Positions 19,350-32,000 of a DNA stretch of 32,000 bases are shown here, one piece after another (within the stretch, counting starts at the first letter, position 1; every line of letters begins with the position of its first letter). A program made the position numbers and the translations under genes. The notes beneath the pieces were generated by a model. The model was given only the letters and a program-made list of their open reading frames with translations. It was not told the origin of the DNA and ran no database searches. The stretch is from Eubacteriaceae bacterium ES3 (GTDB lineage: Bacteria > Bacillota > Clostridia > Eubacteriales > Eubacteriaceae): assembly GCA_030586155.1 (NCBI GenBank), contig CP130741.1:396680-428679 (forward strand), given 5' to 3'.

Positions 19350-19415
19350 TGGCGAAAAAAATAGAAAAAATGGGTATCTAAATTACAAATATAAAAAATG
19401 ATAGGAGGGATTACA

Positions 19416-20180
19416 ATGAGCCAATTTACAAAAGCCGTTTTAAGTTTGGTTTTATTGGTTGGAACTTTAGTCGTTAATGCTTTAGGGGCTTTTGGATTCT
19501 TTAACGGAATGTCGCAAAAGGCGGTTTCCGATCTGAATCCTACGCTCATTACGCCAGCTCCGTTTACCTTTGGGATATGGAGTGTTATCTATTTACTACT
19601 GCTCAGTGCTGCTGTCCTTATGGTAGTAAAAAATAAAGATCCGCTTTATAGCGAGGCAATTGATCAGACCGCTCGTCTTTTCTGGGTTTCGTCTGGTCTC
19701 AATATGTTGTGGATTGTTTGTTTCTCATATAATTTTATTGGCATGTCAGCCATTATTATTCTGGCTTTTGCCATTGTGCTTGCATTGCTTGTTAAAAGGT
19801 TAAGTCAATTGGAAGCTGGAAAAAGCTGGTTGCTGCCAACTGCTTTTGGCTTATATTCAGGTTGGCTGCTGATAGCAACGGTTGTCAATTTTTCTGCCTT
19901 CTTAGTCAGCATTGGGTGGAATGGCTTTGGCCTGGCACCAGAATACTGGGCGTCTATAGTTTTAGTCATTGCAGTAGGACTGGCCTTTGTTGTTGCAAGT
20001 AATACCAAAAACTTTGTCATCCCACTGCCGATAGCCTGGGGATTCTTTGGAATCTATCAGGCACACAAAGAAATGGGGGGGGGATATCCTTTGTTACAGA
20101 CTGTTACTTTAATAGGAATCCTACTTCTTTTAGGGATTAGCGGCTACCAGTTCTGGAGGAATAAAAAATCAGTGGGCTGA
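19416..20180 (+). CDS. Integral membrane protein, tentatively TspO/MBR-related (tryptophan-rich sensory protein-like)
   Basis: It is Trp-rich with about 7 hydrophobic segments. ITPAPFTFGIWSVIYLLL resembles the motif I associate with long TspO-like proteins. I take the start at the ATG at 19416, with AGGAGG 6 nt upstream. The family call is from memory only. Confidence 0.4.
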   Translation: MSQFTKAVLSLVLLVGTLVVNALGAFGFFNGMSQKAVSDLNPTLITPAPFTFGIWSVIYLLLLSAAVLMVVKNKDPLYSEAIDQTARLFWVSSGLNMLWIVCFSYNFIGMSAIIILAFAIVLALLVKRLSQLEAGKSWLLPTAFGLYSGWLLIATVVNFSAFLVSIGWNGFGLAPEYWASIVLVIAVGLAFVVASNTKNFVIPLPIAWGFFGIYQAHKEMGGGYPLLQTVTLIGILLLLGISGYQFWRNKKSVG

Positions 20181-20209
20181 TCTAGAAAGATAATTGAGTA
20201 AGTCCGATA

Positions 20210-21076
20210 TTAAGAATTTTTATGAGCTTTTGCACTTAAAAATTTAGCTGCTTCCATTCCGGCCTTTTCACCTTCATAGATTGCTTTGGACAGGGTCATT
20301 TCAGCGTTTGTACAGCCGCCAGCAGCATAGACGCCAGGCAGATTAGTACCCAGTTGATTATTGACTTGAATAAGCTGATTTTCAGACATAACCCCCAATT
20401 TACGGGCCAGGTCGGATCCGTTTGCAATTCCGACAGCCAGAAATAGTCCTGCAAACAACAGGCTGGAATCATCTTCAAAGAGGACGCCCTCAATGGTTTC
20501 GTGTCCGAAGAAGCCTTCGATTTTTTTCTCGATCACGGTAATGTGATCAGGGATTTTTACATTGACTGGTTCACCATTTGTCAGGATAGTAGCTGAAGCA
20601 GCAAAAGTAAGAAGTTGATTTGCCTCATACAGTGCATACTCACCGTTTCCTAAAACGACAGGATGACGGTCTCTGTAGAAGAAGGCATCACAGGCGGCAC
20701 AGTGATGAACCCCTTTCCCAATAAAAGCGGACAGGTTATCCAGATCAGGCAAGGGGGAAGGAGGACCGGTTGTAATAATCAGGCTGTCCGTAGAGTAATC
20801 GGCTGATTTTGTTTTGACATGAAGTTTTCCAGTATAGGAAAAACCGATTACTTCATCTGTAATAATCTCAACACCCAGGTCTTTGAGTCGGCTTCGGGTG
20901 TTGTCGATTAGAATTTTACCGGAAATTGCTGTGTTATAGCCGAAAACGGTTTGAACTGAATTGACTAATGTGCTGTTATTTAAGCCAATCAGGATAGTAT
21001 CTATCCCACATTGTGCGGTATGTAAAGCAGCCGACATCCCGGCGGGGCCAGTTCCAATAATAATTACACTAGACAT
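20210..21076 (-). CDS. Thioredoxin-reductase-like FAD-dependent disulfide oxidoreductase
   Basis: It has the FAD motif VIIIGTGPAGMSAA and the redox-active pair HHCAACDAFF (CAAC at 20690..20701). Where TrxB has GGGxSA it has LGNGEYA, and I see no HRRxxxR. I take the start at the ATG at 21076 (MSSVIIIG...). Confidence 0.75.
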   Translation of the reverse strand: MSSVIIIGTGPAGMSAALHTAQCGIDTILIGLNNSTLVNSVQTVFGYNTAISGKILIDNTRSRLKDLGVEIITDEVIGFSYTGKLHVKTKSADYSTDSLIITTGPPSPLPDLDNLSAFIGKGVHHCAACDAFFYRDRHPVVLGNGEYALYEANQLLTFAASATILTNGEPVNVKIPDHITVIEKKIEGFFGHETIEGVLFEDDSSLLFAGLFLAVGIANGSDLARKLGVMSENQLIQVNNQLGTNLPGVYAAGGCTNAEMTLSKAIYEGEKAGMEAAKFLSAKAHKNS

Positions 21077-21228
21077 AAAAAAGCCGCCTTTCATTTGATA
21101 AACTCATTATAGCAGATAAAATAAGGGGATGCTACAGATGTGCATTCTGGTCTCAAAGCATTAGTAAAAATACTAAGACGCATCAGAAATAGTGATATTC
21201 AACACATTTAGAAAGAGAGGCGTATTTG

Positions 21229-21882
21229 ATGGAAAACCTAACCTGGAGTTTAAGAACAAGCTTAGATGGTGAGAAGCCCGAGATTGTATCGGATTATCTG
21301 CTGAACGAACTTGGTGTTTTTGTAAAACACGAAATGCGAATGCCCAAAAAAGCGAAACTTACAGCCTTGACTGGTTTTCGAATTGGTTATAAGGCAATAC
21401 CTGGGACAGATTATCGAGCCGCTCCGATGGATCGTCAGGCGATTCTATGGAAAAAAATCAAACGGATCGAAGAATTTAAGGATGGTCTGATAATTTTTGG
21501 AAACAGCGAGGATGAGATCAAACTGCTTTTTGAAGAGGTAAACAGGGATGAGATTAGCTCATATATAAGCTCTATGAGAACAGCTCATCCGCCGATTAAA
21601 ACAGCTGACTTCGATGCCGCTTCCTGGCTTTGCTGGCAGGAGGATGATGAGTGGACTGATCCCTTTGCACCGCTATCAGAAATGATTGAGGAAGAATTAC
21701 GAACTGAACGCTTTCTTGAACCGGAGGTTTTAGCAGCAACAGTTTTGCGTGGTGACGTGGAGATGTTAGGCACAGAAAATAATTCGGAATTAGATAGAAA
21801 TGAAAAGTTTTGTCATAATTGCGGAACATGGCTTTCTTTAGATGATAATTTTTGTACTGAGTGCGGTGCTAAGCAGGATTAA
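21229..21882 (+). CDS. Hypothetical protein with a C-terminal zinc-ribbon
   Basis: The C-terminal CHNCGTWLSLDDNFCTECGAK gives CxxC-x10-CxxC. The rest is unrecognised. AGAGAGG lies 8 nt upstream of the ATG at 21229. Confidence 0.6.
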   Translation: MENLTWSLRTSLDGEKPEIVSDYLLNELGVFVKHEMRMPKKAKLTALTGFRIGYKAIPGTDYRAAPMDRQAILWKKIKRIEEFKDGLIIFGNSEDEIKLLFEEVNRDEISSYISSMRTAHPPIKTADFDAASWLCWQEDDEWTDPFAPLSEMIEEELRTERFLEPEVLAATVLRGDVEMLGTENNSELDRNEKFCHNCGTWLSLDDNFCTECGAKQD

Positions 21883-22904: not shown

Positions 22905-23903
22905 ATGGCCTCAAAATTAATTTTTCTAGTCACCGGAGCGGCCGGTCACCTGGGCCGGGTAGTAACGCAGAAGCTGATTCAAAAGGGTGAACGTGTCCGG
23001 GCTTTGGTTTTAGCTGGGGAAAAACTGCTGCCGCAAAATGCTAAAATTTATTATGGGGATGTGCGGGACAAAAACTCGCTAAGGCCCTTCTTTGAACATG
23101 AGCAGGGTGAAGTTCTGGTGGTCATTCACTGCGCCGGCATTGTCTCCATCGCCTCAAAATACAGCCAGGATCTTTACGATGTCAATGTCACAGGAACTAG
23201 AAATATTACCGATCTTTGCCTGGAATATAGGGTTTCAAAGCTTGTTTATGTCTCTTCCGTCCATGCTATAGAAGCGCAGGCCCAGGGGATTGTAATGACA
23301 GAAACCAATAACTTTGATCCCAACCGGGTGTTGGGGCAATATGCTAAAACAAAGGCGGAAGCAACCGCCTATGTATTGGCGGCAACTGAACAAAACCTGG
23401 ATACTTCGGTGGTTCATCCGTCCGGGATTATCGGGCCTTTTGATTACGGTTGTGCCCATATGACAGCGATGATTATAGATTTTTGCAAACACAGACTGAC
23501 TTCGGGGATTTCCGGTGGTTATGATTTTGTGGATGTTCGCGATGTTGCTGATGGGATCATTGCCGCTTGCGATAGAGGTGCTAGTGGAGACTGCTATATT
23601 CTTTCAAATCGGTATTATACAGTCAGAGAAATTTTGCGGATGCTTTCTAAAATAACCGGGCGTCGGAGGATCAAAAGTTTCCTGCCGATCTGGTTTGTCA
23701 AAATGACCGCACCGATGGCGGAAGTATACTATAAGATCAGACGAAAACCGCCGCTTTTTACGGCTTATTCTATTGAAACCCTGCAGACCAATGCCAACTT
23801 TTCCCACGTCAAAGCCAGCAAAGAACTGGGGTACCACACAAGACCGATGATGGATACTTTGGCAGATACAGTCAGTTGGTTAAAAGAAAATGGAAGAATA
23901 TGA
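22905..23903 (+). CDS. NAD(P)-dependent epimerase/dehydratase (extended SDR) family protein
   Basis: It has the Rossmann motif VTGAAGHLGRVV, the catalytic YxxxK (YAKTK) and a dihydroflavonol-reductase-like length of 332 aa. Confidence 0.8.
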   Translation: MASKLIFLVTGAAGHLGRVVTQKLIQKGERVRALVLAGEKLLPQNAKIYYGDVRDKNSLRPFFEHEQGEVLVVIHCAGIVSIASKYSQDLYDVNVTGTRNITDLCLEYRVSKLVYVSSVHAIEAQAQGIVMTETNNFDPNRVLGQYAKTKAEATAYVLAATEQNLDTSVVHPSGIIGPFDYGCAHMTAMIIDFCKHRLTSGISGGYDFVDVRDVADGIIAACDRGASGDCYILSNRYYTVREILRMLSKITGRRRIKSFLPIWFVKMTAPMAEVYYKIRRKPPLFTAYSIETLQTNANFSHVKASKELGYHTRPMMDTLADTVSWLKENGRI

Positions 23904-25848: not shown

Positions 25849-26065
25849 AATAAATTTACCTCCATCATTTTATAATTTTGATACCCAAATTATAAAAGCT
25901 TAATTAAATTTTGGGGAGATTGCAAAGTATTTAAACTTGACTTATTAATTTGTATTGGATATTTATTGGTATATGACCGGATTGAAAGTAACCATATATT
26001 TTGATAAACTTTATTTAAGAGTAGGGAAATAGAAAGCCGGTTATTAAAATTAAGGGGGCAACAGT

Positions 26066-29000
26066 TTGGACAATAATGACAAGGTAATTACGCTTTTTTC
26101 TTATATAAAAGAACTCTACGAGCAGAAATATTCGATTATTGCAGATGTGAAAGCACAGCAATGGTTTCAATGGCTTTCGGAAATACCAGCTAATGAAGCT
26201 TATGTAAAACTGAATTATCTGGATCGTTTATCTGAAGATGATGAAATGGGAGAGGAAAAAAGCATTATTCTCGAAGTAAGCAAACCTGAATTTGAAAAGT
26301 GCCCTTCTATACCGGAAATTCTCTTGTTCTGGGTCGAACCGGGCTGGCAGAAGTTTAACAATCAGGCATTACGTAAAGACAGTATACAAATCTATAAGGG
26401 TGAGACGCTGACAACTGAAAATTTTACAGATGATCCGCTTCGGGTCAGCACCTATAATTATTGGAGCAAAGATCGGGACAGGTGGGTTATTCGTCAATTG
26501 GAAATAAACAAGATCCGGCTGCTTTTTAATCAATTATATTTGATTTACAATGAGTTGGAAAATAATTCAGAAGCGGTTGAACTAATGGTTGGGCAAGGCA
26601 TATTAAGTTGCCAGTCGGATCTGTATGAATTTGTGTCCCATCCTATTCTTTTAAAAAGACTATCTATGGAATTTCTGGCCAAGCAGAACATTATCAGAAT
26701 TATTGATTCCAATGTTGACCCGGAACTCTATACCATGCTTTTGCAAAAGATAGATTTCATTAATCATTTGGCTGTTAAAGGTTTAAAAGATGATCTGGAA
26801 GACAATTTTTATCATCCCCTGGATAGAAAGGAGACGCCGGAATATCTTAAAAGCTTTGCTCACCGATTGCACTCGGACAGTAAGTATAGCTCAGATTTGA
26901 ATGATAGGCTGAATGAATATGATAAGCTGATTATTTATGATCATCCGGTTTTTTTCGTACGCAAAAGGACGGGTGGAGTTGTTAAAGCAATAGAGGATAT
27001 TATTGGACAGATTGAAGAAACGGGACAAGTATCGGGACCGCTTCTAAATCTGATAGGTGAGAACGTTTCTCAGTTTTCAGATAGCCTTAGAAGCCTGGAT
27101 TTAAGTCAGAGTCTGGCTGCCATTAATGGTGAAGACAAATCAGTCCTCTTATCAAAAGAGGCCAATGAGGAACAACTGGAAATTGCCAGACAAATAGAAA
27201 AGTATAATGCGGTCCTGGTACAGGGGCCGCCGGGAACCGGAAAAACCCATACTATTGCAAATCTGATTGGGCATTTTCTGGCCCAGGGAAAAAATATTCT
27301 GGTTACCAGTCATACCAGGAAAGCCTTGAGTGTTGTCAAGGAAAAGGTGGTACCAGAGCTGCAAGATCTTTGTGTATCGGTTTTATATGACAATAATCTG
27401 GATATGGAACGTTCAGTGGATGGGATTTCTGAATATATTTCATCCCATAATTCATTGGAGTTGCATCAAAATAGTGAAAAATTAAAAAGAGAACGGGATA
27501 AGATCATTGACGACTTATCCAATATCAGACAGAAGTCATATTCTATAAAGTTTAAAGAATACGAAAGTATTGTTTTTGACGGTAAAGAATATTCTCCAGC
27601 AGAAGCGGCAAGATTTGTTCATGAAAATAGGGAAAATTTATCGTATATTCCCGGCAAAGTGAAACTGAATCAGCCACTGCCCGTTACGATTGGCGACCTG
27701 GAGCTGGTTTATAAAAGCAATTCTGAAATCTCAGTCAGTGAAGAAATTGAACTGGAGAATAAGCTACCCAATCCGGATAGTTTACTGGCGCCCTATCAGT
27801 TTGAATCGGCAGTGAAAAGTCTGAGGAAAATTGAAGAACAGCTGGAACGTATCAATGAAAAATTTGATAAGCGTCTAAAGTATAATTTAAATCAGCTTGA
27901 GGTTGAATACCAGGGTGAAAAACTTTATAAAGCACCTGATTTGGACAAAGTGGCAGAACTGAAAGACATGATTAGGAATAATGTTTTTCAGTTTTCCGGC
28001 TGGGAAATTCATGCCATTCTGGATGGCAAAAAAGGTGGCGGTTTCAAAAAAGTATGGGAAGATTTATATAATTTACTGGATGAAACCTATCAGTTAGCAG
28101 GTGATACCGTTCAGATGACAGTTGGAAAATCGTTGACCGGCAGTCATCAGGTTGATGAAGAGACGATTAGAATATTGTGTCAGATAAAAGAACACTTAAA
28201 TGAGGGGAAAAAGCTGTCAGGACTGGTATTTTTAATACACCGGGACTGGAAAGCGATACTGGAGAATATCTCATTGAATGGTCAGCCTGTAAGAACAGCC
28301 GAAGACTGCCAGGTATTAATTGTTTTGTGTCGGCTTAAACTGAAGCGAGACCAACTGAGATTATTATGGGATGAGCTGATTTTTAAAAATGGCGGCATAA
28401 ATTTTGATGAACTGGGGCAAGAACCTGAGGAGACGGGAATTCAGTACAACAAAATTATCAAGGCAAGTCTCAATTGGTATGAAGACACATTTAGCAGGAT
28501 AAAAAATTGTTTTGTTCAGGTCGGCTTTAATGCTGAACTGATGAAAGAAGATCAGATTAACCTGAATGCACAAGCTGAAATTGAATTTTTAACTCATAAA
28601 GTTTATAACGATTTACCACTCTATATTGAGATAGTTGAATTGATTGAGGAGGACTTAAGAGATTTAAAAGGGCAATTAGATTCAAATCTTGAAATCTTGA
28701 CCAGCTACAAAAATTCTGTCATCTGTAAGTTGCTTTCTGCAGTCGCTGTTCAAAAGAATGCTACAAGGTACCGGGAAATTTTTGACCAGTTGAATAAGCT
28801 TTATGAAAAGAACTTTTTTTTGTCAGAACGATTTAGAATTCTCAAATCCATTGAGGGGAGCGCTCCCGAATGGGCTGCGATGATCAAAAATCGGACTGGT
28901 ATTCATGGGCAGGCTGACCTTCCGGCTAATATTGAAGAAGCCTGGAAATGGAAGCAATTTGCCGGACTTATCGAGGAAATCACGAAGCAGCCCTTTGATA

Positions 29001-30616
29001 AATTGCAGCGGCAGATGGCTGAACTAACCGGAAAACTGAGGCAGCTGACAGCTGTTTTATCTGAGAACCTTTCCTGGTATCATCTATTGACTCGAATTGA
29101 AGGGGATATCAGTAAAAAACAGGCCCTTCAGGGCTGGAAAATGACGGTTAAAAAAATTGGCAAAGGCACAGGAAAAAGGGCACCGGCTTTAAGACGGGAA
29201 GCAAAAAAACTGATGGCAGAGTGTCAGACTTCGGTGCCGGCCTGGATTATGCCAGTCAATAAAGCTCTGGAGACATTGGACCCTCGAAATAATAGGTTTG
29301 ACATTGTCATTATCGATGAAGCCAGTCAGTCCGATATTTCAGCTCTGGCGATTATGTATCTGGCCAAAAAGATTATAATAGTCGGGGATGATGAGCAGGT
29401 CAGCCCTTCAGCGGTTGGAATCGATCAGGAAAAAATGCATAATCTGGCGAAAATGACTATCCAGGGGCTTATTCCCAATTCGCACCTATATGATATGAAC
29501 TCTTCCTTGTATGATATCGGAAAAACAACCTTTCCAACCCTGATGTTAAAAGAGCATTTTCGCTGTGTCCCCAGCATTATCAATTACAGCAACCGTCTGT
29601 CATATGATTTTAAAATTCGACCGCTTAGAGACGACAGTCAGGTAATGGTTAAGCCAGCAACTGCAGCTTATCAGGTATATGGCCAGCGGGAAGGCCGTAA
29701 AAAAGTCAATGAGCTGGAAGCTAAAACAGTTGTAGCCTTAATGCTTGCCTGCATGAGACATATGGAATACGATAAGATGACTTTTGGGGCAATTTCCATG
29801 CTGGGAGAAGATCAGGCCAAGCGGATTTATGAATTGGCAATTGAAAAAATCGAGCCCTCTATCATGGAAGAACGGCGAATTTTATGCGGGAATGCCGCCA
29901 GTTTTCAGGGGGACGAGCGGGACATTATCTTTCTTTCGCTGGTGGACAGCAATGAGGGGGACGGTCCTTTAAGAATGACTGGTGAAGGCAGCGGCAAATC
30001 GACCAAACAACGATATAATGTGGCGGCCAGCCGGGCCAGAAATCAGCTTTGGGTGGTTCATTCATTAGATGTTTTTGATGATTTGAAAGCAGGCGATATG
30101 CGTCGGGATTTGATTGAATATGTTTCGGACCCAAAAGTTTTTTCAAAACAGCAGTTTATTGAGAAGAAGTCCAATTCACCCTTTGAAATTGCAGTTTCTG
30201 GAGCACTTGAAAAAAATGGTTTCAGAATTGTTCAGCACTGGCAAGTGGGGGCCTATCGTATTGATCTGGTTGCAGTCTCAGGCGAAAAGAAAATTGCCAT
30301 TGAATGTGATGGCGAGCTTTATTCTAGCGGTGCTGAAAATATTCGCGTAGAGATGGAGAAGCAGGCTGTCCTTGAAAGACTTGGCTGGCGCTTTATCCAC
30401 ATCCGAGGCAGTGAGTATTATGGGGATCCAGAAGCGACCTTGAAACGAGTCATGCGGGAGTTGAAGGAATTTGAAATTGAACCGGAAACCGAAGCTTTTT
30501 TTGAATCCGGCGAAAAGTTGGGACTTAAGGAGCGTGTGATTGCGACGGCTAAAGTGATTTTAGATGATTGGGAAAAAGAATCAGAAGCGCTTTCTACTGA
30601 ATCGGAGATGAGTTAA
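26066..30616 (+). CDS. Large SF1 (Upf1/DNA2-like, AAA_11/AAA_12-type) helicase with a C-terminal Vsr/DUF559-like endonuclease domain
   Basis: Motif I is VLVQGPPGTGKTHT (aa 387-394, nt 27224-27247). Motif II is IVIIDEASQ (D1084, nt 29315). Motif III is IIIVGDDEQVSP and motif IV is KEHFRC. Motifs V and VI are FQGDERDIIFLSLV and RYNVAASRARNQLWVVHS. The C-terminal YRIDLVAVSGEKKIAIECDGELY...ERLGWRFIHIRGSEY shows the D...E.DG pattern of the Vsr/DUF559 fold. The start is a TTG with AAGGGGG 7 nt upstream. Confidence 0.85.
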   Translation: MDNNDKVITLFSYIKELYEQKYSIIADVKAQQWFQWLSEIPANEAYVKLNYLDRLSEDDEMGEEKSIILEVSKPEFEKCPSIPEILLFWVEPGWQKFNNQALRKDSIQIYKGETLTTENFTDDPLRVSTYNYWSKDRDRWVIRQLEINKIRLLFNQLYLIYNELENNSEAVELMVGQGILSCQSDLYEFVSHPILLKRLSMEFLAKQNIIRIIDSNVDPELYTMLLQKIDFINHLAVKGLKDDLEDNFYHPLDRKETPEYLKSFAHRLHSDSKYSSDLNDRLNEYDKLIIYDHPVFFVRKRTGGVVKAIEDIIGQIEETGQVSGPLLNLIGENVSQFSDSLRSLDLSQSLAAINGEDKSVLLSKEANEEQLEIARQIEKYNAVLVQGPPGTGKTHTIANLIGHFLAQGKNILVTSHTRKALSVVKEKVVPELQDLCVSVLYDNNLDMERSVDGISEYISSHNSLELHQNSEKLKRERDKIIDDLSNIRQKSYSIKFKEYESIVFDGKEYSPAEAARFVHENRENLSYIPGKVKLNQPLPVTIGDLELVYKSNSEISVSEEIELENKLPNPDSLLAPYQFESAVKSLRKIEEQLERINEKFDKRLKYNLNQLEVEYQGEKLYKAPDLDKVAELKDMIRNNVFQFSGWEIHAILDGKKGGGFKKVWEDLYNLLDETYQLAGDTVQMTVGKSLTGSHQVDEETIRILCQIKEHLNEGKKLSGLVFLIHRDWKAILENISLNGQPVRTAEDCQVLIVLCRLKLKRDQLRLLWDELIFKNGGINFDELGQEPEETGIQYNKIIKASLNWYEDTFSRIKNCFVQVGFNAELMKEDQINLNAQAEIEFLTHKVYNDLPLYIEIVELIEEDLRDLKGQLDSNLEILTSYKNSVICKLLSAVAVQKNATRYREIFDQLNKLYEKNFFLSERFRILKSIEGSAPEWAAMIKNRTGIHGQADLPANIEEAWKWKQFAGLIEEITKQPFDKLQRQMAELTGKLRQLTAVLSENLSWYHLLTRIEGDISKKQALQGWKMTVKKIGKGTGKRAPALRREAKKLMAECQTSVPAWIMPVNKALETLDPRNNRFDIVIIDEASQSDISALAIMYLAKKIIIVGDDEQVSPSAVGIDQEKMHNLAKMTIQGLIPNSHLYDMNSSLYDIGKTTFPTLMLKEHFRCVPSIINYSNRLSYDFKIRPLRDDSQVMVKPATAAYQVYGQREGRKKVNELEAKTVVALMLACMRHMEYDKMTFGAISMLGEDQAKRIYELAIEKIEPSIMEERRILCGNAASFQGDERDIIFLSLVDSNEGDGPLRMTGEGSGKSTKQRYNVAASRARNQLWVVHSLDVFDDLKAGDMRRDLIEYVSDPKVFSKQQFIEKKSNSPFEIAVSGALEKNGFRIVQHWQVGAYRIDLVAVSGEKKIAIECDGELYSSGAENIRVEMEKQAVLERLGWRFIHIRGSEYYGDPEATLKRVMRELKEFEIEPETEAFFESGEKLGLKERVIATAKVILDDWEKESEALSTESEMS

Positions 30617-30674
30617 ATCTTTGGAAAAATAGATGCTGATATTTCAGGAATTGAAAAAATAAAGGAGACAAGTT

Positions 30675-31625
30675 TTGAACGATAAAAATATTGCCTTACT
30701 GATTGATGTTGACAATGTCAGTGCCAAATATGTGAAAATTATTTTTGAAGAGTTGAATGCCATCGGGACAGTTTCGATTAGAAGGATTTATGGAAACTGG
30801 CAAAAGAATTATGGTTGGAATGAAGAGGTTCTGCTGGAGTATTCGATTCAGCCGATTCAGCAGTTTGATTACACTAAAGGTAAAAACGCAACGGATATGG
30901 CCATGGTCATTGATGCTATGGATATCCTGTATAACCATGATATTGATATATTCTGTATTGTTTCAAGTGACAGCGATTTTACCCGACTGGCCATGAGATT
31001 GAGAGAGTCTCAAACCTATGTAATTGGCATGGGGGAATCAAAGACTCCGCTGGCTTTAACAAAGGCCTGTAATAAATTTGTCCATCTAAATTTAATTGCC
31101 TCGGAAGATGCTGAAGCAGATTTGGAAAAGACAGAGGGAGAAAATAATCAGAATGGAAAAACTGCTATAACCGTTGAGTCTAATGTGACACCTAAAGAAG
31201 TCATTGAAAAGTCAATTCTCGATATGCTGGCCGACCATGATCGTGTTCCTTTAGGTGATATTGGTCGTAAATTGGGTAACCTGTATTCGGATTTTGATGT
31301 CAGAAACTATGGTTATACAAAACTGAGCGTCTTTATCCGGGAAGAATGTTCGAAAATTTTTATTGAAGAAGAAGACAGACATTATTTCGTGAAAATGAAG
31401 AATGCAGTGGATATTATGACGATTAAAAAGGAAATCATTGAGATGATTAGAAATAACGGGGGCGTTATTCAGAATTTGTCAAAAATTCATGATGAACTAA
31501 AGAATAGACATGCACATTTTAATCTCCATGATTATGGTTTCAGCCGGTGTTCAAGTTTTCTGCGAAGTATAGATGGACTTGTTGTGGAGGGAAATAAGGT
31601 TAGATTGAAGGGGAAAGTAAAATAG
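30675..31625 (+). CDS. NYN-domain (LabA/PIN-like) putative ribonuclease with two C-terminal OST-HTH/LOTUS domains
   Basis: The N-terminus has IALLIDVDNV...IFCIVSSDSDFTRLAMRLRE, the NYN acidic residues. Two repeats follow of the LOTUS-like pattern (...VPLGDIGRKLGNLYSDFDVRNYGYTKLSVFI... and ...IQNLSKIHDELKNRHAHFNLHDYGFSRCSSFL...). The start is a TTG with AAGGAG 7 nt upstream. It lies 58 nt after the helicase stop with no hairpin between. Confidence 0.8.
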   Translation: MNDKNIALLIDVDNVSAKYVKIIFEELNAIGTVSIRRIYGNWQKNYGWNEEVLLEYSIQPIQQFDYTKGKNATDMAMVIDAMDILYNHDIDIFCIVSSDSDFTRLAMRLRESQTYVIGMGESKTPLALTKACNKFVHLNLIASEDAEADLEKTEGENNQNGKTAITVESNVTPKEVIEKSILDMLADHDRVPLGDIGRKLGNLYSDFDVRNYGYTKLSVFIREECSKIFIEEEDRHYFVKMKNAVDIMTIKKEIIEMIRNNGGVIQNLSKIHDELKNRHAHFNLHDYGFSRCSSFLRSIDGLVVEGNKVRLKGKVK

Positions 31626-31658: not shown

Positions 31659-32000
31659 ATGAAAATCCAAGTACAGTATTCAACATTAATCGTTAAAGAC
31701 CTGTCCGAATCAGTTCGCTTTTATCGGGATGTGCTGGGCTTATCTGAAGGTTATCATGTGGATTTACCGGGAGGCGGTGCTATAACCATTATGAATAGTG
31801 AAGATGGAGCCAGTGTTGAGTTGACCGAAAGTAAAAATTTTGATGTGGGTATGTATTCGATTGGTACCGATGTTGCTGATCTTGACGAAGCCATTAGGGA
31901 GCTGAAGGAAAAAGGGTATGAAACCACCGGACCGGTTATTGCCACCTCAGTAGGACGGCAGACTTTTGTTATGGATCCCAATGGTGTCCGCATTTGCCTG
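31659..32000 (+). CDS. VOC (glyoxalase/bleomycin-resistance/dioxygenase) family protein, 3' end beyond the window
   Basis: Absent from the ORF track because there is no stop in the window. My translation is MKIQVQYSTLIVKDLSESVRFYRDVLGLSEGYHVDLPGGGAITIMNSEDGASVELTE...TFVMDPNGVRICL. The 'F Y..vLG' start and 'D P(N/D)G' end are typical of VOC folds. Confidence 0.7.
   Translation, partial: MKIQVQYSTLIVKDLSESVRFYRDVLGLSEGYHVDLPGGGAITIMNSEDGASVELTESKNFDVGMYSIGTDVADLDEAIRELKEKGYETTGPVIATSVGRQTFVMDPNGVRICL

What the first reader, a model, noticed from the sequence alone, without database searches (positions are those of the whole stretch)
26066..31625. Candidate defence module: giant SF1 helicase-nuclease followed by a NYN-LOTUS RNase
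**Architecture**
- The 1516-aa protein combines a complete Upf1/DNA2-type helicase core with a C-terminal Vsr/DUF559-like endonuclease fold and a roughly 385-aa N-terminal region that I cannot assign.
- The next gene lies 58 nt downstream with no terminator and probably belongs to the same operon.
- It encodes a NYN (PIN-like) nuclease domain plus two OST-HTH/LOTUS RNA-binding domains, the architecture of eukaryotic MARF1/limkain-b1.

**Relation to known systems**
Helicase plus Vsr-type nuclease logic is what I recall for the single-gene anti-phage system Hhe. COG1112-type helicases also define Mokosh. I do not know of a described two-gene system that pairs such a helicase-nuclease with a NYN-LOTUS protein. 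The N-terminus does not show the RNRLLNF-like motif I associate with DUF4011.

**Context**
The flanks are unrelated housekeeping-type genes (a Rieske protein and a VOC protein), which fits an inserted accessory module.
Basis: partly seen in the sequence, partly recalled or inferred. Interest (0 to 1): 0.75.

Follow-up and report, generated by a model that had tools for sequence, protein, structure and literature searches.

The report
Stand-alone helicase-nuclease beside unrelated NYN-LOTUS RNase
Both genes are real and correctly described, but they are neighbours only in this one genome, so this is not a two-gene defence system: it is a lone, uncharacterised helicase-nuclease (a plausible single-gene anti-phage protein) sitting next to an already-described stand-alone bacterial RNase.

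Summary
A 1516-aa SF1 helicase with a C-terminal MTES_1575 (Vsr/DUF559-like) nuclease lies at 26066-30616. A 316-aa NYN + 2xLOTUS protein follows at 30675-31625, after a 58-nt gap with no terminator.

In 88 loci with helicase relatives (26-64% identity, many phyla; 73 non-redundant with at least 1.5 kb downstream) none has a NYN-LOTUS relative. NYN-LOTUS orthologs (70-74%) in four relatives sit in four different contexts, never beside a helicase. A 2010 paper already described this bacterial architecture as a stand-alone RNase without conserved neighbours.

The helicase belongs to a family of about 950 clusters (50% identity). Its marks are a conserved N-terminal domain and a ~560-aa helical insert in the motor, neither with a solved-structure relative. 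It matches Hhe, PDC-S37, "ProA" and Mokosh models only over the motor and nuclease, far below membership cut-offs. It has no fixed partner gene and often sits near restriction genes and transposases.

Most likely it is a single-gene Hhe-like defence protein. That function is untested.

The parts
25982..26010 (+). Candidate promoter of the helicase gene (TTGAAA-17 nt-TAAACT with an upstream TG), about 56 nt before the start codon
   Evidence: Consensus scan only. Not evidence of function.
26066..30616 (+). Helicase-nuclease gene, 1516 aa, TTG start
   Evidence: ORF. Identical to NCBI 'AAA domain-containing protein [Eubacteriaceae bacterium ES3]'. The family is conserved along its whole length, with mean column identity 59% in 15 members.
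26066..27085 (+). Family-specific N-terminal domain (aa 1 to about 340), an alpha/beta fold with a 43-residue helix; no Pfam family
   Evidence: No Pfam hit. AlphaFold2 model pLDDT 84.8, pTM 0.71. No Foldseek match in the PDB: best E 0.06, TM below 0.12. 949 clusters at E<=1e-3, almost always at the N-terminus of 1500-1900 aa proteins.
27161..27592 (+). SF1 helicase domain 1A, first part, with Walker A GPPGTGKT (aa 387-394, K393)
   Evidence: AAA_11 367-508. Motif invariant in 15 members.
27593..29281 (+). About 560-aa all-alpha insert (aa ~510-1072) splitting domain 1A between Walker A and Walker B
   Evidence: Gap between the two AAA_11 stretches. Model of aa 430-1075 has pLDDT 88.6 with long helices. 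Foldseek against the PDB gives only non-significant coiled-coil matches to MukB, Rad50 and SMC, E>=0.19.
29282..30070 (+). Rest of the helicase core: Walker B DEASQ (1084-1088), motif III GDDEQ (1107-1111), domain 2A with QGDERD (1281-1286) and VAASRA (1319-1324)
   Evidence: AAA_12 1157-1331 and Viral_helicase1 1073-1113. Motifs invariant. Closest solved sequences are Upf1-like 5'-3' helicases: 8ftm 1.4e-13, then Sen1, Upf1, DNA2, IGHMBP2.
30182..30463 (+). MTES_1575 / DUF559 (Vsr-like, PD-(D/E)xK) nuclease domain (aa 1373-1466) with D1400 and E1413-C-D1415
   Evidence: PF18741 2.1e-26 over the full model 1-96/96. D1400, E1413 and D1415 are invariant.
30617..30674 (+). 58-nt intergenic gap with the NYN gene's ribosome-binding site; no terminator or promoter-like site found
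   Evidence: NYN orthologs elsewhere have 260-370 nt upstream gaps. Upstream DNA is alignable only at the RBS and start codon.
30675..31625 (+). NYN (LK-nuclease) + 2x OST-HTH/LOTUS protein, 316 aa; an independent gene, not part of a system with the helicase
   Evidence: ORF. NYN 5-138 3.3e-35 and OST-HTH x2. D11, D80, D83, D99 and D101 invariant, mean column identity 62%. 70-74% orthologs in Acetobacterium and related MAGs.
30687..31088 (+). NYN nuclease domain (aa 5-138)
   Evidence: PF01936.
31209..31370 (+). First OST-HTH/LOTUS domain (best Pfam stretch, aa 179-232)
   Evidence: PF12872. 2kpm (NE0665 LOTUS) 1.5e-3 over aa 180-233.
31404..31610 (+). Second OST-HTH/LOTUS domain (about aa 244-312; boundaries from my reading of the alignment)
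   Evidence: Pfam reports two OST-HTH stretches. Conserved block in A4.

Best explanation
These are two functionally independent genes that are adjacent only in this genome, inside a segment that Eubacteriaceae bacterium ES3 does not share with its closest sequenced relatives.

Gene 1 is a stand-alone helicase-nuclease from a widespread, uncharacterised family. I think it most likely acts as a single-polypeptide defence protein against phages or other mobile DNA, in the manner of Hhe. In that model, the Upf1-like SF1 motor loads on nucleic acid and translocates using ATP. The C-terminal PD-(D/E)xK (MTES_1575/Vsr-like) domain cuts DNA. The family-specific N-terminal domain and the long helical insert in the motor hold the enzyme in check or sense an infection-linked signal.

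Shown: the domain anatomy, intact catalytic motifs, patchy distribution, absence of any fixed partner gene, and frequent restriction-enzyme or transposase neighbours. Inferred: the defence role, the DNA target, and the regulatory role of the two unassigned domains.

Gene 2 is a member of the bacterial LK-nuclease/NYN + OST-HTH family described in 2010. It is a stand-alone RNase whose LOTUS domains bind RNA. In ES3 it may be co-transcribed with the helicase, which I take to be an accident of position.
For: No co-occurrence: 0 of 88 helicase-homolog loci carry a NYN-LOTUS relative (73 non-redundant loci have at least 1.5 kb downstream, 39 of them from full-length family members). The closest homologs at 64, 58, 57, 57 and 53% identity have other neighbours. 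NYN-LOTUS orthologs at 70-74% identity sit in four unrelated contexts without a helicase.

No partner gene: the largest cluster of helicase neighbours covers 6 of about 80 loci.

[quoted passage not shown] One of two bacterial LOTUS domains tested bound G-quadruplex RNA (PMC7498356).

Helicase kinship: partial matches to PDC-S37, Hhe, MkoA/C and ProA. [quoted passage not shown]

Neighbourhoods of family members include Mrr_cat x3, GmrSD_N x2, ResIII x2, N6_Mtase, DrmD, HEC-04, PDC-S02, Abi_2, AAA_15/21, several transposases and resolvases.

All helicase and nuclease catalytic motifs are invariant.
Against: No experiment links this family to defence. The neighbourhood evidence is qualitative, because I could not compute an enrichment score against a background. 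In ES3 itself there are no defence or mobile-element genes in the 32-kb window. GC and codon usage are native-like, and no insertion scars are present. There are no phage hits, and the only full-length plasmid-collection hits are on Mb-sized replicons. The closest solved helicases act on RNA, so the substrate is uncertain. The short gap without a terminator means co-expression of the two genes in ES3 is likely, so a lineage-specific functional link cannot be formally excluded.
Confidence: 0.7

Rival explanations
1. A genuine, lineage-specific two-gene system. The helicase-nuclease and the NYN-LOTUS RNase are co-transcribed in ES3 and work together, for example with the helicase sensing and the RNase acting as a second effector.
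For: 58-nt gap, same strand, and no terminator or promoter-like site between them. Both lie in a segment absent from ES2 and a related MAG. In animals some LOTUS domains bind and stimulate a helicase, Vasa (abstract of PMC5458760, listed).
Against: 0 of 88 helicase loci have a NYN-LOTUS gene, and 0 of 4 NYN contexts have a helicase. The NYN protein hits no PADLOC model. Vasa binding belongs to the animal-only extended LOTUS, and bacteria have the minimal type (PMC7498356). The helicase here is SF1, not DEAD-box. The VOC gene follows 33 nt later with the same lack of a terminator, so proximity alone would equally make it a 'member'.
Confidence: 0.05
2. The helicase-nuclease is a housekeeping or stress-induced DNA-repair or replication-restart enzyme, a Dna2- or AddAB-like end processor, rather than an immune protein.
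For: Helicase plus PD-(D/E)xK nuclease is also the logic of Dna2 (weak sequence match, 1.7e-5). The Fpg repair gene lies 3.4 kb away. Composition is native-like and there are no mobile-element genes in the window.
Against: Distribution is patchy. Among named genomes, the family appears in one Acetobacterium MAG, Proteiniborus, Fusobacterium russii and Synergistaceae, but not in A. woodii or A. bakii among the top hits. There is no conserved synteny with any repair gene. Neighbours are often restriction enzymes, other defence candidates and transposases. The locus differs between strains carrying the identical protein (L009 against L010-L012).
Confidence: 0.15
3. The helicase acts on RNA, as a Upf1/Sen1/MkoA-like 5'-3' RNA helicase. 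It would sense or remodel foreign transcripts, with the nuclease as effector.
For: The closest solved sequences are RNA helicases: '5'-3' RNA helicase-like protein' 8ftm 1.4e-13, then Sen1 and Upf1. The Mokosh helicase models MkoA and MkoC match at 1e-33 to 1e-35.
Against: The same core also matches the DNA helicases DNA2, IGHMBP2 and RecD, so sequence does not decide the substrate. The MTES_1575/DUF559 fold is known as a DNA endonuclease fold (family knowledge, not tested here).
Confidence: 0.1

Closest known systems
Hhe (single-gene anti-phage helicase-nuclease; PADLOC PDLC02194, NCBIfam NF042953)
   Same: A single large polypeptide with an SF1 AAA_11/AAA_12 motor followed by a Vsr/DUF559-type nuclease. 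The models align over aa ~1053-1477 plus the Walker A region. Like this family, hhe has a patchy, cargo-like distribution (PMC11551731).
   Different: No DUF4011 N-terminal domain in this protein or in 15 family members. The score is 137.7 bits against a cut-off of 2000. The N-terminal domain and the ~560-aa insert are family-specific.
PDC-S37 (PADLOC candidate single-gene system, untested) and NCBIfam 'anti-phage protein ProA' (NF058533)
   Same: These are the best-scoring defence models: 1e-59 and 1.8e-57. Both share the motor's second half and the MTES_1575 nuclease.
   Different: Only about 420 of 1516 residues align in the best stretch. ProA scores 194.8 bits against a cut-off of 1500. 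The best PDC-S37 match among 15 members is 7.8e-67 and still partial. I found no paper on ProA in the library.
Mokosh (MkoA/MkoB, or the single-gene MkoC)
   Same: COG1112/Upf1-like helicase core (MkoC 1e-35, MkoA 4e-33).
   Different: From my own knowledge, Mokosh pairs the helicase with a PLD-family nuclease. No PLD domain is present here; the nuclease is MTES_1575.
Bacterial LK-nuclease/NYN + OST-HTH family (Anantharaman, Zhang & Aravind 2010); 'MARF1-like' bacterial proteins
   Same: An identical architecture, NYN/DUF88 nuclease plus a duplicated OST-HTH, described as the stereotypic bacterial form, sporadic but widespread and without conserved neighbours (PMC2848206; PMC7498356).
   Different: Nothing architectural. 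The only peculiarity is its position 58 nt behind a helicase gene in ES3.
Eukaryotic MARF1 / limkain-b1
   Same: NYN nuclease plus LOTUS domains. MARF1 is an endoribonuclease (abstracts of PMC6294520 and PMC6217404, listed).
   Different: MARF1 also has RRMs and 6-8 LOTUS domains and works with the decapping and deadenylation machinery, none of which exists here.

Membership tests
Hhe | N-terminal DUF4011 domain (NCBIfam names the family 'DUF4011 domain-containing anti-phage protein Hhe') | tested here: not met
   No DUF4011 hit at E<=0.1 in the ES3 protein or at E<=0.01 in 15 diverse family members.
Hhe | Full-length match to the family model above the curated cut-off | tested here: not met
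   NF042953 scores 137.7 bits against a cut-off of 2000, with the best stretch at aa 1053-1477 only. PADLOC Hhe 5e-36 is also partial.
Hhe | Single polypeptide with an SF1 helicase and a Vsr/DUF559-type nuclease, acting without a partner gene | tested here: met
   AAA_11, AAA_12 and MTES_1575 are in one ORF. No conserved neighbour in about 80 loci.
Hhe | Protects against phage when expressed | not testable with these tools
   Needs plaque assays.
PDC-S37 / ProA | Full-length match to the family model | tested here: not met
   PDC-S37 gives 200.5 bits, with aa 1071-1481 aligned to model positions 931-1352 of 1550. ProA gives 194.8 bits against a cut-off of 1500. The best among 15 members is 7.8e-67.
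Mokosh | PLD-family nuclease, as MkoB or fused in MkoC (my own knowledge of the system) | tested here: not met
   No PLD domain in the Pfam scan of either protein.
Mokosh | COG1112/Upf1-like helicase | tested here: met
   MkoC 1e-35 and MkoA 4.3e-33.
Bacterial LK-nuclease/NYN + OST-HTH family | N-terminal NYN/DUF88 nuclease with conserved acidic residues | tested here: met
   PF01936 3.3e-35 over 1-144/145. D11, D80, D83, D99 and D101 are invariant.
Bacterial LK-nuclease/NYN + OST-HTH family | One or two C-terminal OST-HTH/LOTUS domains | tested here: met
   PF12872 5.8e-21, two stretches. The NE0665 LOTUS structure 2kpm matches at 1.5e-3.
Bacterial LK-nuclease/NYN + OST-HTH family | Stand-alone gene without a conserved neighbourhood | tested here: met
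   Four orthologs in four different contexts, in agreement with PMC2848206.
   0 of 88 helicase loci and 0 of 4 NYN contexts.

The most novel reading that the evidence does not exclude
In the ES3 lineage a resident NYN-LOTUS RNase has been captured into the transcription unit of an incoming helicase-nuclease, and the two now cooperate. That would be a newly formed bacterial LOTUS-helicase partnership, reminiscent of the LOTUS-Vasa pairing in animals.

A less exotic but more probable novel reading, at about 0.4, is that the helicase family by itself is an undescribed single-gene anti-phage system whose N-terminal domain and helical insert are new sensor folds.
Probability: 0.04. Interest if true: 0.7.

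Novelty: new variant of a known kind. Interest (0 to 1): 0.3.

Why it matters
The proposed new two-gene defence system is not there, so nobody needs to clone the pair on that premise.

What remains is modest but usable. The helicase-nuclease family is sizeable, at about 950 clusters at 50% identity across many phyla. It shares the Hhe/PDC-S37 motor-nuclease back end, but carries its own N-terminal domain and a ~560-aa helical insert, neither of which has a solved-structure relative. If it defends against phages, it would extend the Hhe-type single-gene class with a different sensing front end. That comparison could help show how such enzymes are switched on.

The NYN-LOTUS gene adds one more case to the long-standing finding that this MARF1-like bacterial RNase stands alone. 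Its cellular role is still unknown.

Tried and rejected
- **ES3 context beyond the window:** looking up the ES3 NYN protein found no record in the index, so the right-hand boundary of the ES3-specific segment stays unknown.
- **Literature on NCBIfam's "ProA" and "PLuB" names:** two searches found nothing relevant. The names remain database labels only.
- **Upstream DNA of NYN genes:** aligning ES3 and four relatives to find a shared promoter or leader showed conservation only at the RBS and start codon. Uninformative.
- **Insertion scars:** the repeat search around the helicase gene found only short, low-identity matches of the kind expected by chance.
- **Rfam:** no RNA family in the window.
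- **GC and codon usage:** neither gene is an outlier, so this test neither supports nor refutes horizontal acquisition.
- **Plasmids and phages:** no phage hits, and full-length plasmid-collection hits only on Mb-sized replicons. No direct evidence of mobility.
- **Pooled neighbour scan:** it reports families, not the number of neighbours with any defence hit, so I could not turn it into an enrichment statistic.
Full report
**1. What is there.** By exact protein matches, the window comes from the chromosome of "Eubacteriaceae bacterium ES3". Both ORFs exist as described.
- The helicase gene is 26066..30616 (+), 1516 aa. It has a TTG start seven bases after AAGGGGG.
- The second gene is 30675..31625 (+), 316 aa. 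It has a TTG start after AAGGAGA.
- The gap is 58 nt. The consensus scan finds no terminator in it and no sigma-70-like site on the + strand between 29443 and 31389.
- A Glyoxalase/VOC gene starts at 31659, only 33 nt further on.

- AAA_11 at 367-508
- AAA_12 at 1157-1331
- MTES_1575 at 1373-1466 (2.1e-26, full model), with a weak DUF559 match
- in the second protein, NYN at 5-138 (3.3e-35) and two OST-HTH/LOTUS stretches

No DUF4011 is detectable. K393 is the Walker-A lysine.

The motor is split. AAA_11 matches 367-508 and resumes near 1073. That leaves an insert of about 560 aa between Walker A (GPPGTGKT, 387-394) and Walker B (DEASQ, 1084-1088).
- An alignment of 15 relatives spanning 45-100% identity is conserved end to end, with mean column identity 59%. 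All helicase motifs and the nuclease residues D1400 and E1413-x-D1415 are invariant.
- AlphaFold2 with a 59-sequence family alignment gives confident models. The N-terminal 365 aa has pLDDT 84.8 and pTM 0.71, with an alpha/beta fold and a 43-residue helix. The insert has pLDDT 88.6 and is almost all helix, including several very long helices.
- A full HMMER scan of 1.84 billion cluster representatives with the N-terminal domain finds 949 clusters at E<=1e-3 and 593 at E<=1e-10. Nearly all carry the domain at the N-terminus of 1500-1900 aa proteins. This domain is therefore the signature of one sizeable family.

From the helicase side:
- I collected 80 loci with helicase relatives from species-representative genomes, with up to 10 kb of flank each.
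- They come from Bacillota, Fusobacteriota, Acidobacteriota, Chloroflexota, Actinomycetota, Pseudomonadota and other phyla.
- I added eight more loci from exact-protein look-ups.
- The 88 loci span 26-64% identity.
- 73 are non-redundant with at least 1.5 kb downstream, and 39 of those are full-length family members.
- tblastn with the NYN-LOTUS protein finds nothing in any of them. Even at E<=10 only noise appears.

From the NYN side:
- Orthologs at 70-74% identity sit in four different neighbourhoods: Acetobacterium woodii, A. bakii, a JGI metagenome contig and the HGW-Firmicutes-17 MAG.
- None has a helicase, and each has 260-370 nt of upstream intergenic DNA.

All-against-all clustering of up to four flanking ORFs on each side of the helicase shows no conserved neighbour of any kind. 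The largest cluster covers 6 of about 80 loci. The pairing is peculiar to ES3.

**4. The NYN-LOTUS protein is a known kind.** Anantharaman, Zhang and Aravind (2010) described this architecture as the stereotypic bacterial form: a DUF88/"LK-nuclease" of the PIN/NYN superfamily plus one or two OST-HTH domains. They called it sporadic but widespread. [quoted passage not shown]
- Ding et al. (2020) call these "MARF1-like" bacterial proteins. One of the two bacterial LOTUS domains they tested bound G-quadruplex RNA (PMC7498356).
- The family is strongly conserved, with mean column identity 62% across Clostridia and invariant acidic residues D11, D80, D83, D99 and D101.
- It matches no PADLOC model.
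- The animal LOTUS-Vasa helicase interaction does not transfer. It belongs to the animal-only extended LOTUS type, and the helicase here is SF1 rather than DEAD-box.

**5. What the helicase is related to.** Defence-model libraries give partial matches only.
- PADLOC: PDC-S37 1e-59 (aa 1071-1481 on model positions 931-1352 of 1550), Hhe 5e-36, MkoC 1e-35 and MkoA 4e-33.
- NCBIfam: "anti-phage protein ProA" at 194.8 bits against a cut-off of 1500, and Hhe at 137.7 bits against 2000.
- Scanning 15 diverse members changes nothing. The best PDC-S37 match is 7.8e-67, and there is no DUF4011 or DUF3320.

The family therefore shares the back end (motor domain 2A plus the MTES_1575 nuclease) with Hhe-type proteins, but it is not a member of Hhe, PDC-S37, ProA or Mokosh. 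It also has no PLD nuclease. The closest solved sequences are Upf1-like 5'-3' helicases: 8ftm at 1.4e-13, followed by Sen1, Upf1, DNA2 and IGHMBP2.

[quoted passage not shown] It appears to respond to the activity of phage DNA-metabolism genes and becomes toxic when a trigger is expressed (PMC11482910). It is also a rare, patchy, exchangeable cargo gene (PMC11551731).

**6. Where family members live.** Neighbourhoods are heterogeneous, but many carry markers of conflict or mobility.
- Acetobacterium MAG: IstB and Abi_2.
- A Eubacteriales genome: an AAA_15/AAA_21 ATPase, a DDE transposase and Y1 transposases.
- Strains carrying the identical protein: a segment that varies between them, with resolvase/recombinase and DUF488 genes.
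- Proteiniborus: a transposase fragment.
- Fusobacterium russii: a second SF1 helicase with DUF2726, a Fic gene and an ISL3 transposase.

A pooled scan of 149 immediate neighbours finds the following:
- Mrr_cat x3
- GmrSD_N x2
- ResIII x2
- N6_Mtase
- IS1595 and Mutator transposases
- DrmD
- HEC-04
- PDC-S02
- HmaB

This pattern is typical of defence islands, but I could not convert it into an enrichment statistic. There are no phage hits, and the only full-length plasmid-collection hits are on Mb-sized replicons.

**7. The ES3 locus.** The flanks are ordinary genes: Fpg, an epimerase, Methyltransf_32, a 2x[4Fe-4S] ferredoxin and Rieske on the left, and VOC on the right.
- Comparison with "Eubacteriaceae bacterium ES2" and a related MAG shows a conserved backbone of ABC permease, Fpg, Methyltransf_32 and ferredoxin at 76-94% protein identity. 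The backbone breaks right after the ferredoxin gene.
- Rieske, helicase, NYN and VOC are all absent from the corresponding 10 kb in the relatives.
- The ES3-specific segment therefore begins before the Rieske gene and runs past the window's end. It cannot be described as a two-gene insertion between housekeeping genes.
- GC (0.406 and 0.369, against 0.404 for the window) and codon usage are unremarkable. There are no flanking repeats beyond chance and no Rfam hits.

**8. Mechanism, with its status.**
- Shown: a single polypeptide with an intact Upf1-like SF1 motor, an intact PD-(D/E)xK nuclease, two large conserved accessory domains, no partner gene, and a patchy distribution.
- Inferred: the motor translocates on nucleic acid using ATP, probably 5'-3' on ssDNA by analogy with SF1B/Upf1-like enzymes. 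The nuclease cuts DNA. The N-terminal domain and the helical insert impose autoinhibition or sense an infection-linked state, as is proposed for Hhe.

I put about 0.55 on a defence role and about 0.9 on the two genes being functionally independent. Rivals are a repair or replication role (about 0.15), an RNA-directed variant (about 0.1) and a true ES3-specific pair (about 0.05).

**9. Verdict.** The helicase is best filed as a new variant of the Hhe-type single-gene helicase-nuclease kind, with function untested. The NYN-LOTUS gene is an already-described stand-alone family. Interest is low to moderate.

Noticed in passing
L095:338-571 (+): A group II intron (Rfam RF02005, D1-D4-6, 140.9 bits against a gathering score of 49) lies beside a GAP1-N1 gene in the HGW-Firmicutes-17 contig that carries the NYN-LOTUS ortholog.
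   Followed up: no
L004:1293-1400 (A. bakii): A 36-aa stretch is 72% identical to LOTUS-1 residues 205-240 of the ES3 protein (E 6e-9). It lies 8.6 kb upstream of the real NYN-LOTUS gene and overlaps a called 77-aa 'GyrI-like' gene. It may be a LOTUS fragment or the remnant of a duplication.
   Followed up: no
L016:4010-4297, L017:5967-6218, L048:4079-4294, L049:2253-2492: Small PC4-like (PF02229) ORFs sit directly beside helicase-family members in four loci. From my own knowledge, PC4 is a single-stranded-DNA-binding fold. This is the only recurrent small neighbour, but it is far from universal, at 4 of about 80 loci.
   Followed up: partly
window 19398-21882 and 22905-23903: Relative to ES2 and a related MAG, ES3 has extra genes inside an otherwise conserved backbone. 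An unknown 260-aa protein, a Pyr_redox_2 oxidoreductase and a Zn-ribbon protein lie between the ABC permease and Fpg. An NAD-dependent epimerase lies between Fpg and Methyltransf_32. This whole region of ES3 is mosaic.
   Followed up: partly
L101:1524-4241 (Fusobacterium russii): A second SF1 helicase (AAA_11/AAA_12 with a C-terminal DUF2726) lies directly upstream of the family member, with Fic and an ISL3 transposase nearby. The two helicase-type genes are in tandem.
   Followed up: no
one search hit list (no window coordinates): No cluster among the top 120 NYN-LOTUS relatives includes a 3.76-Mb contig. ES2, one of the two closest relatives by the neighbouring methyltransferase (76%), therefore seems to lack a close ortholog. 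The NYN-LOTUS gene is itself sporadic, as the 2010 paper says.
   Followed up: partly
window 26066 and 30675; L004, L093, L095 start codons: Both ES3 genes start with TTG after strong Shine-Dalgarno sequences. NYN orthologs also use non-ATG starts: TTG in A. bakii and L093, and GTG in L095.
   Followed up: no
window 30294-30315 (+): A terminator-like hairpin followed by a T-rich tail lies inside the helicase ORF, over the codons for the nuclease motif IAIECDG. It has only 3 G-C pairs, and the count of such sites in the region equals the shuffle expectation (5 found against 5.2 expected), so it is probably chance.
   Followed up: no
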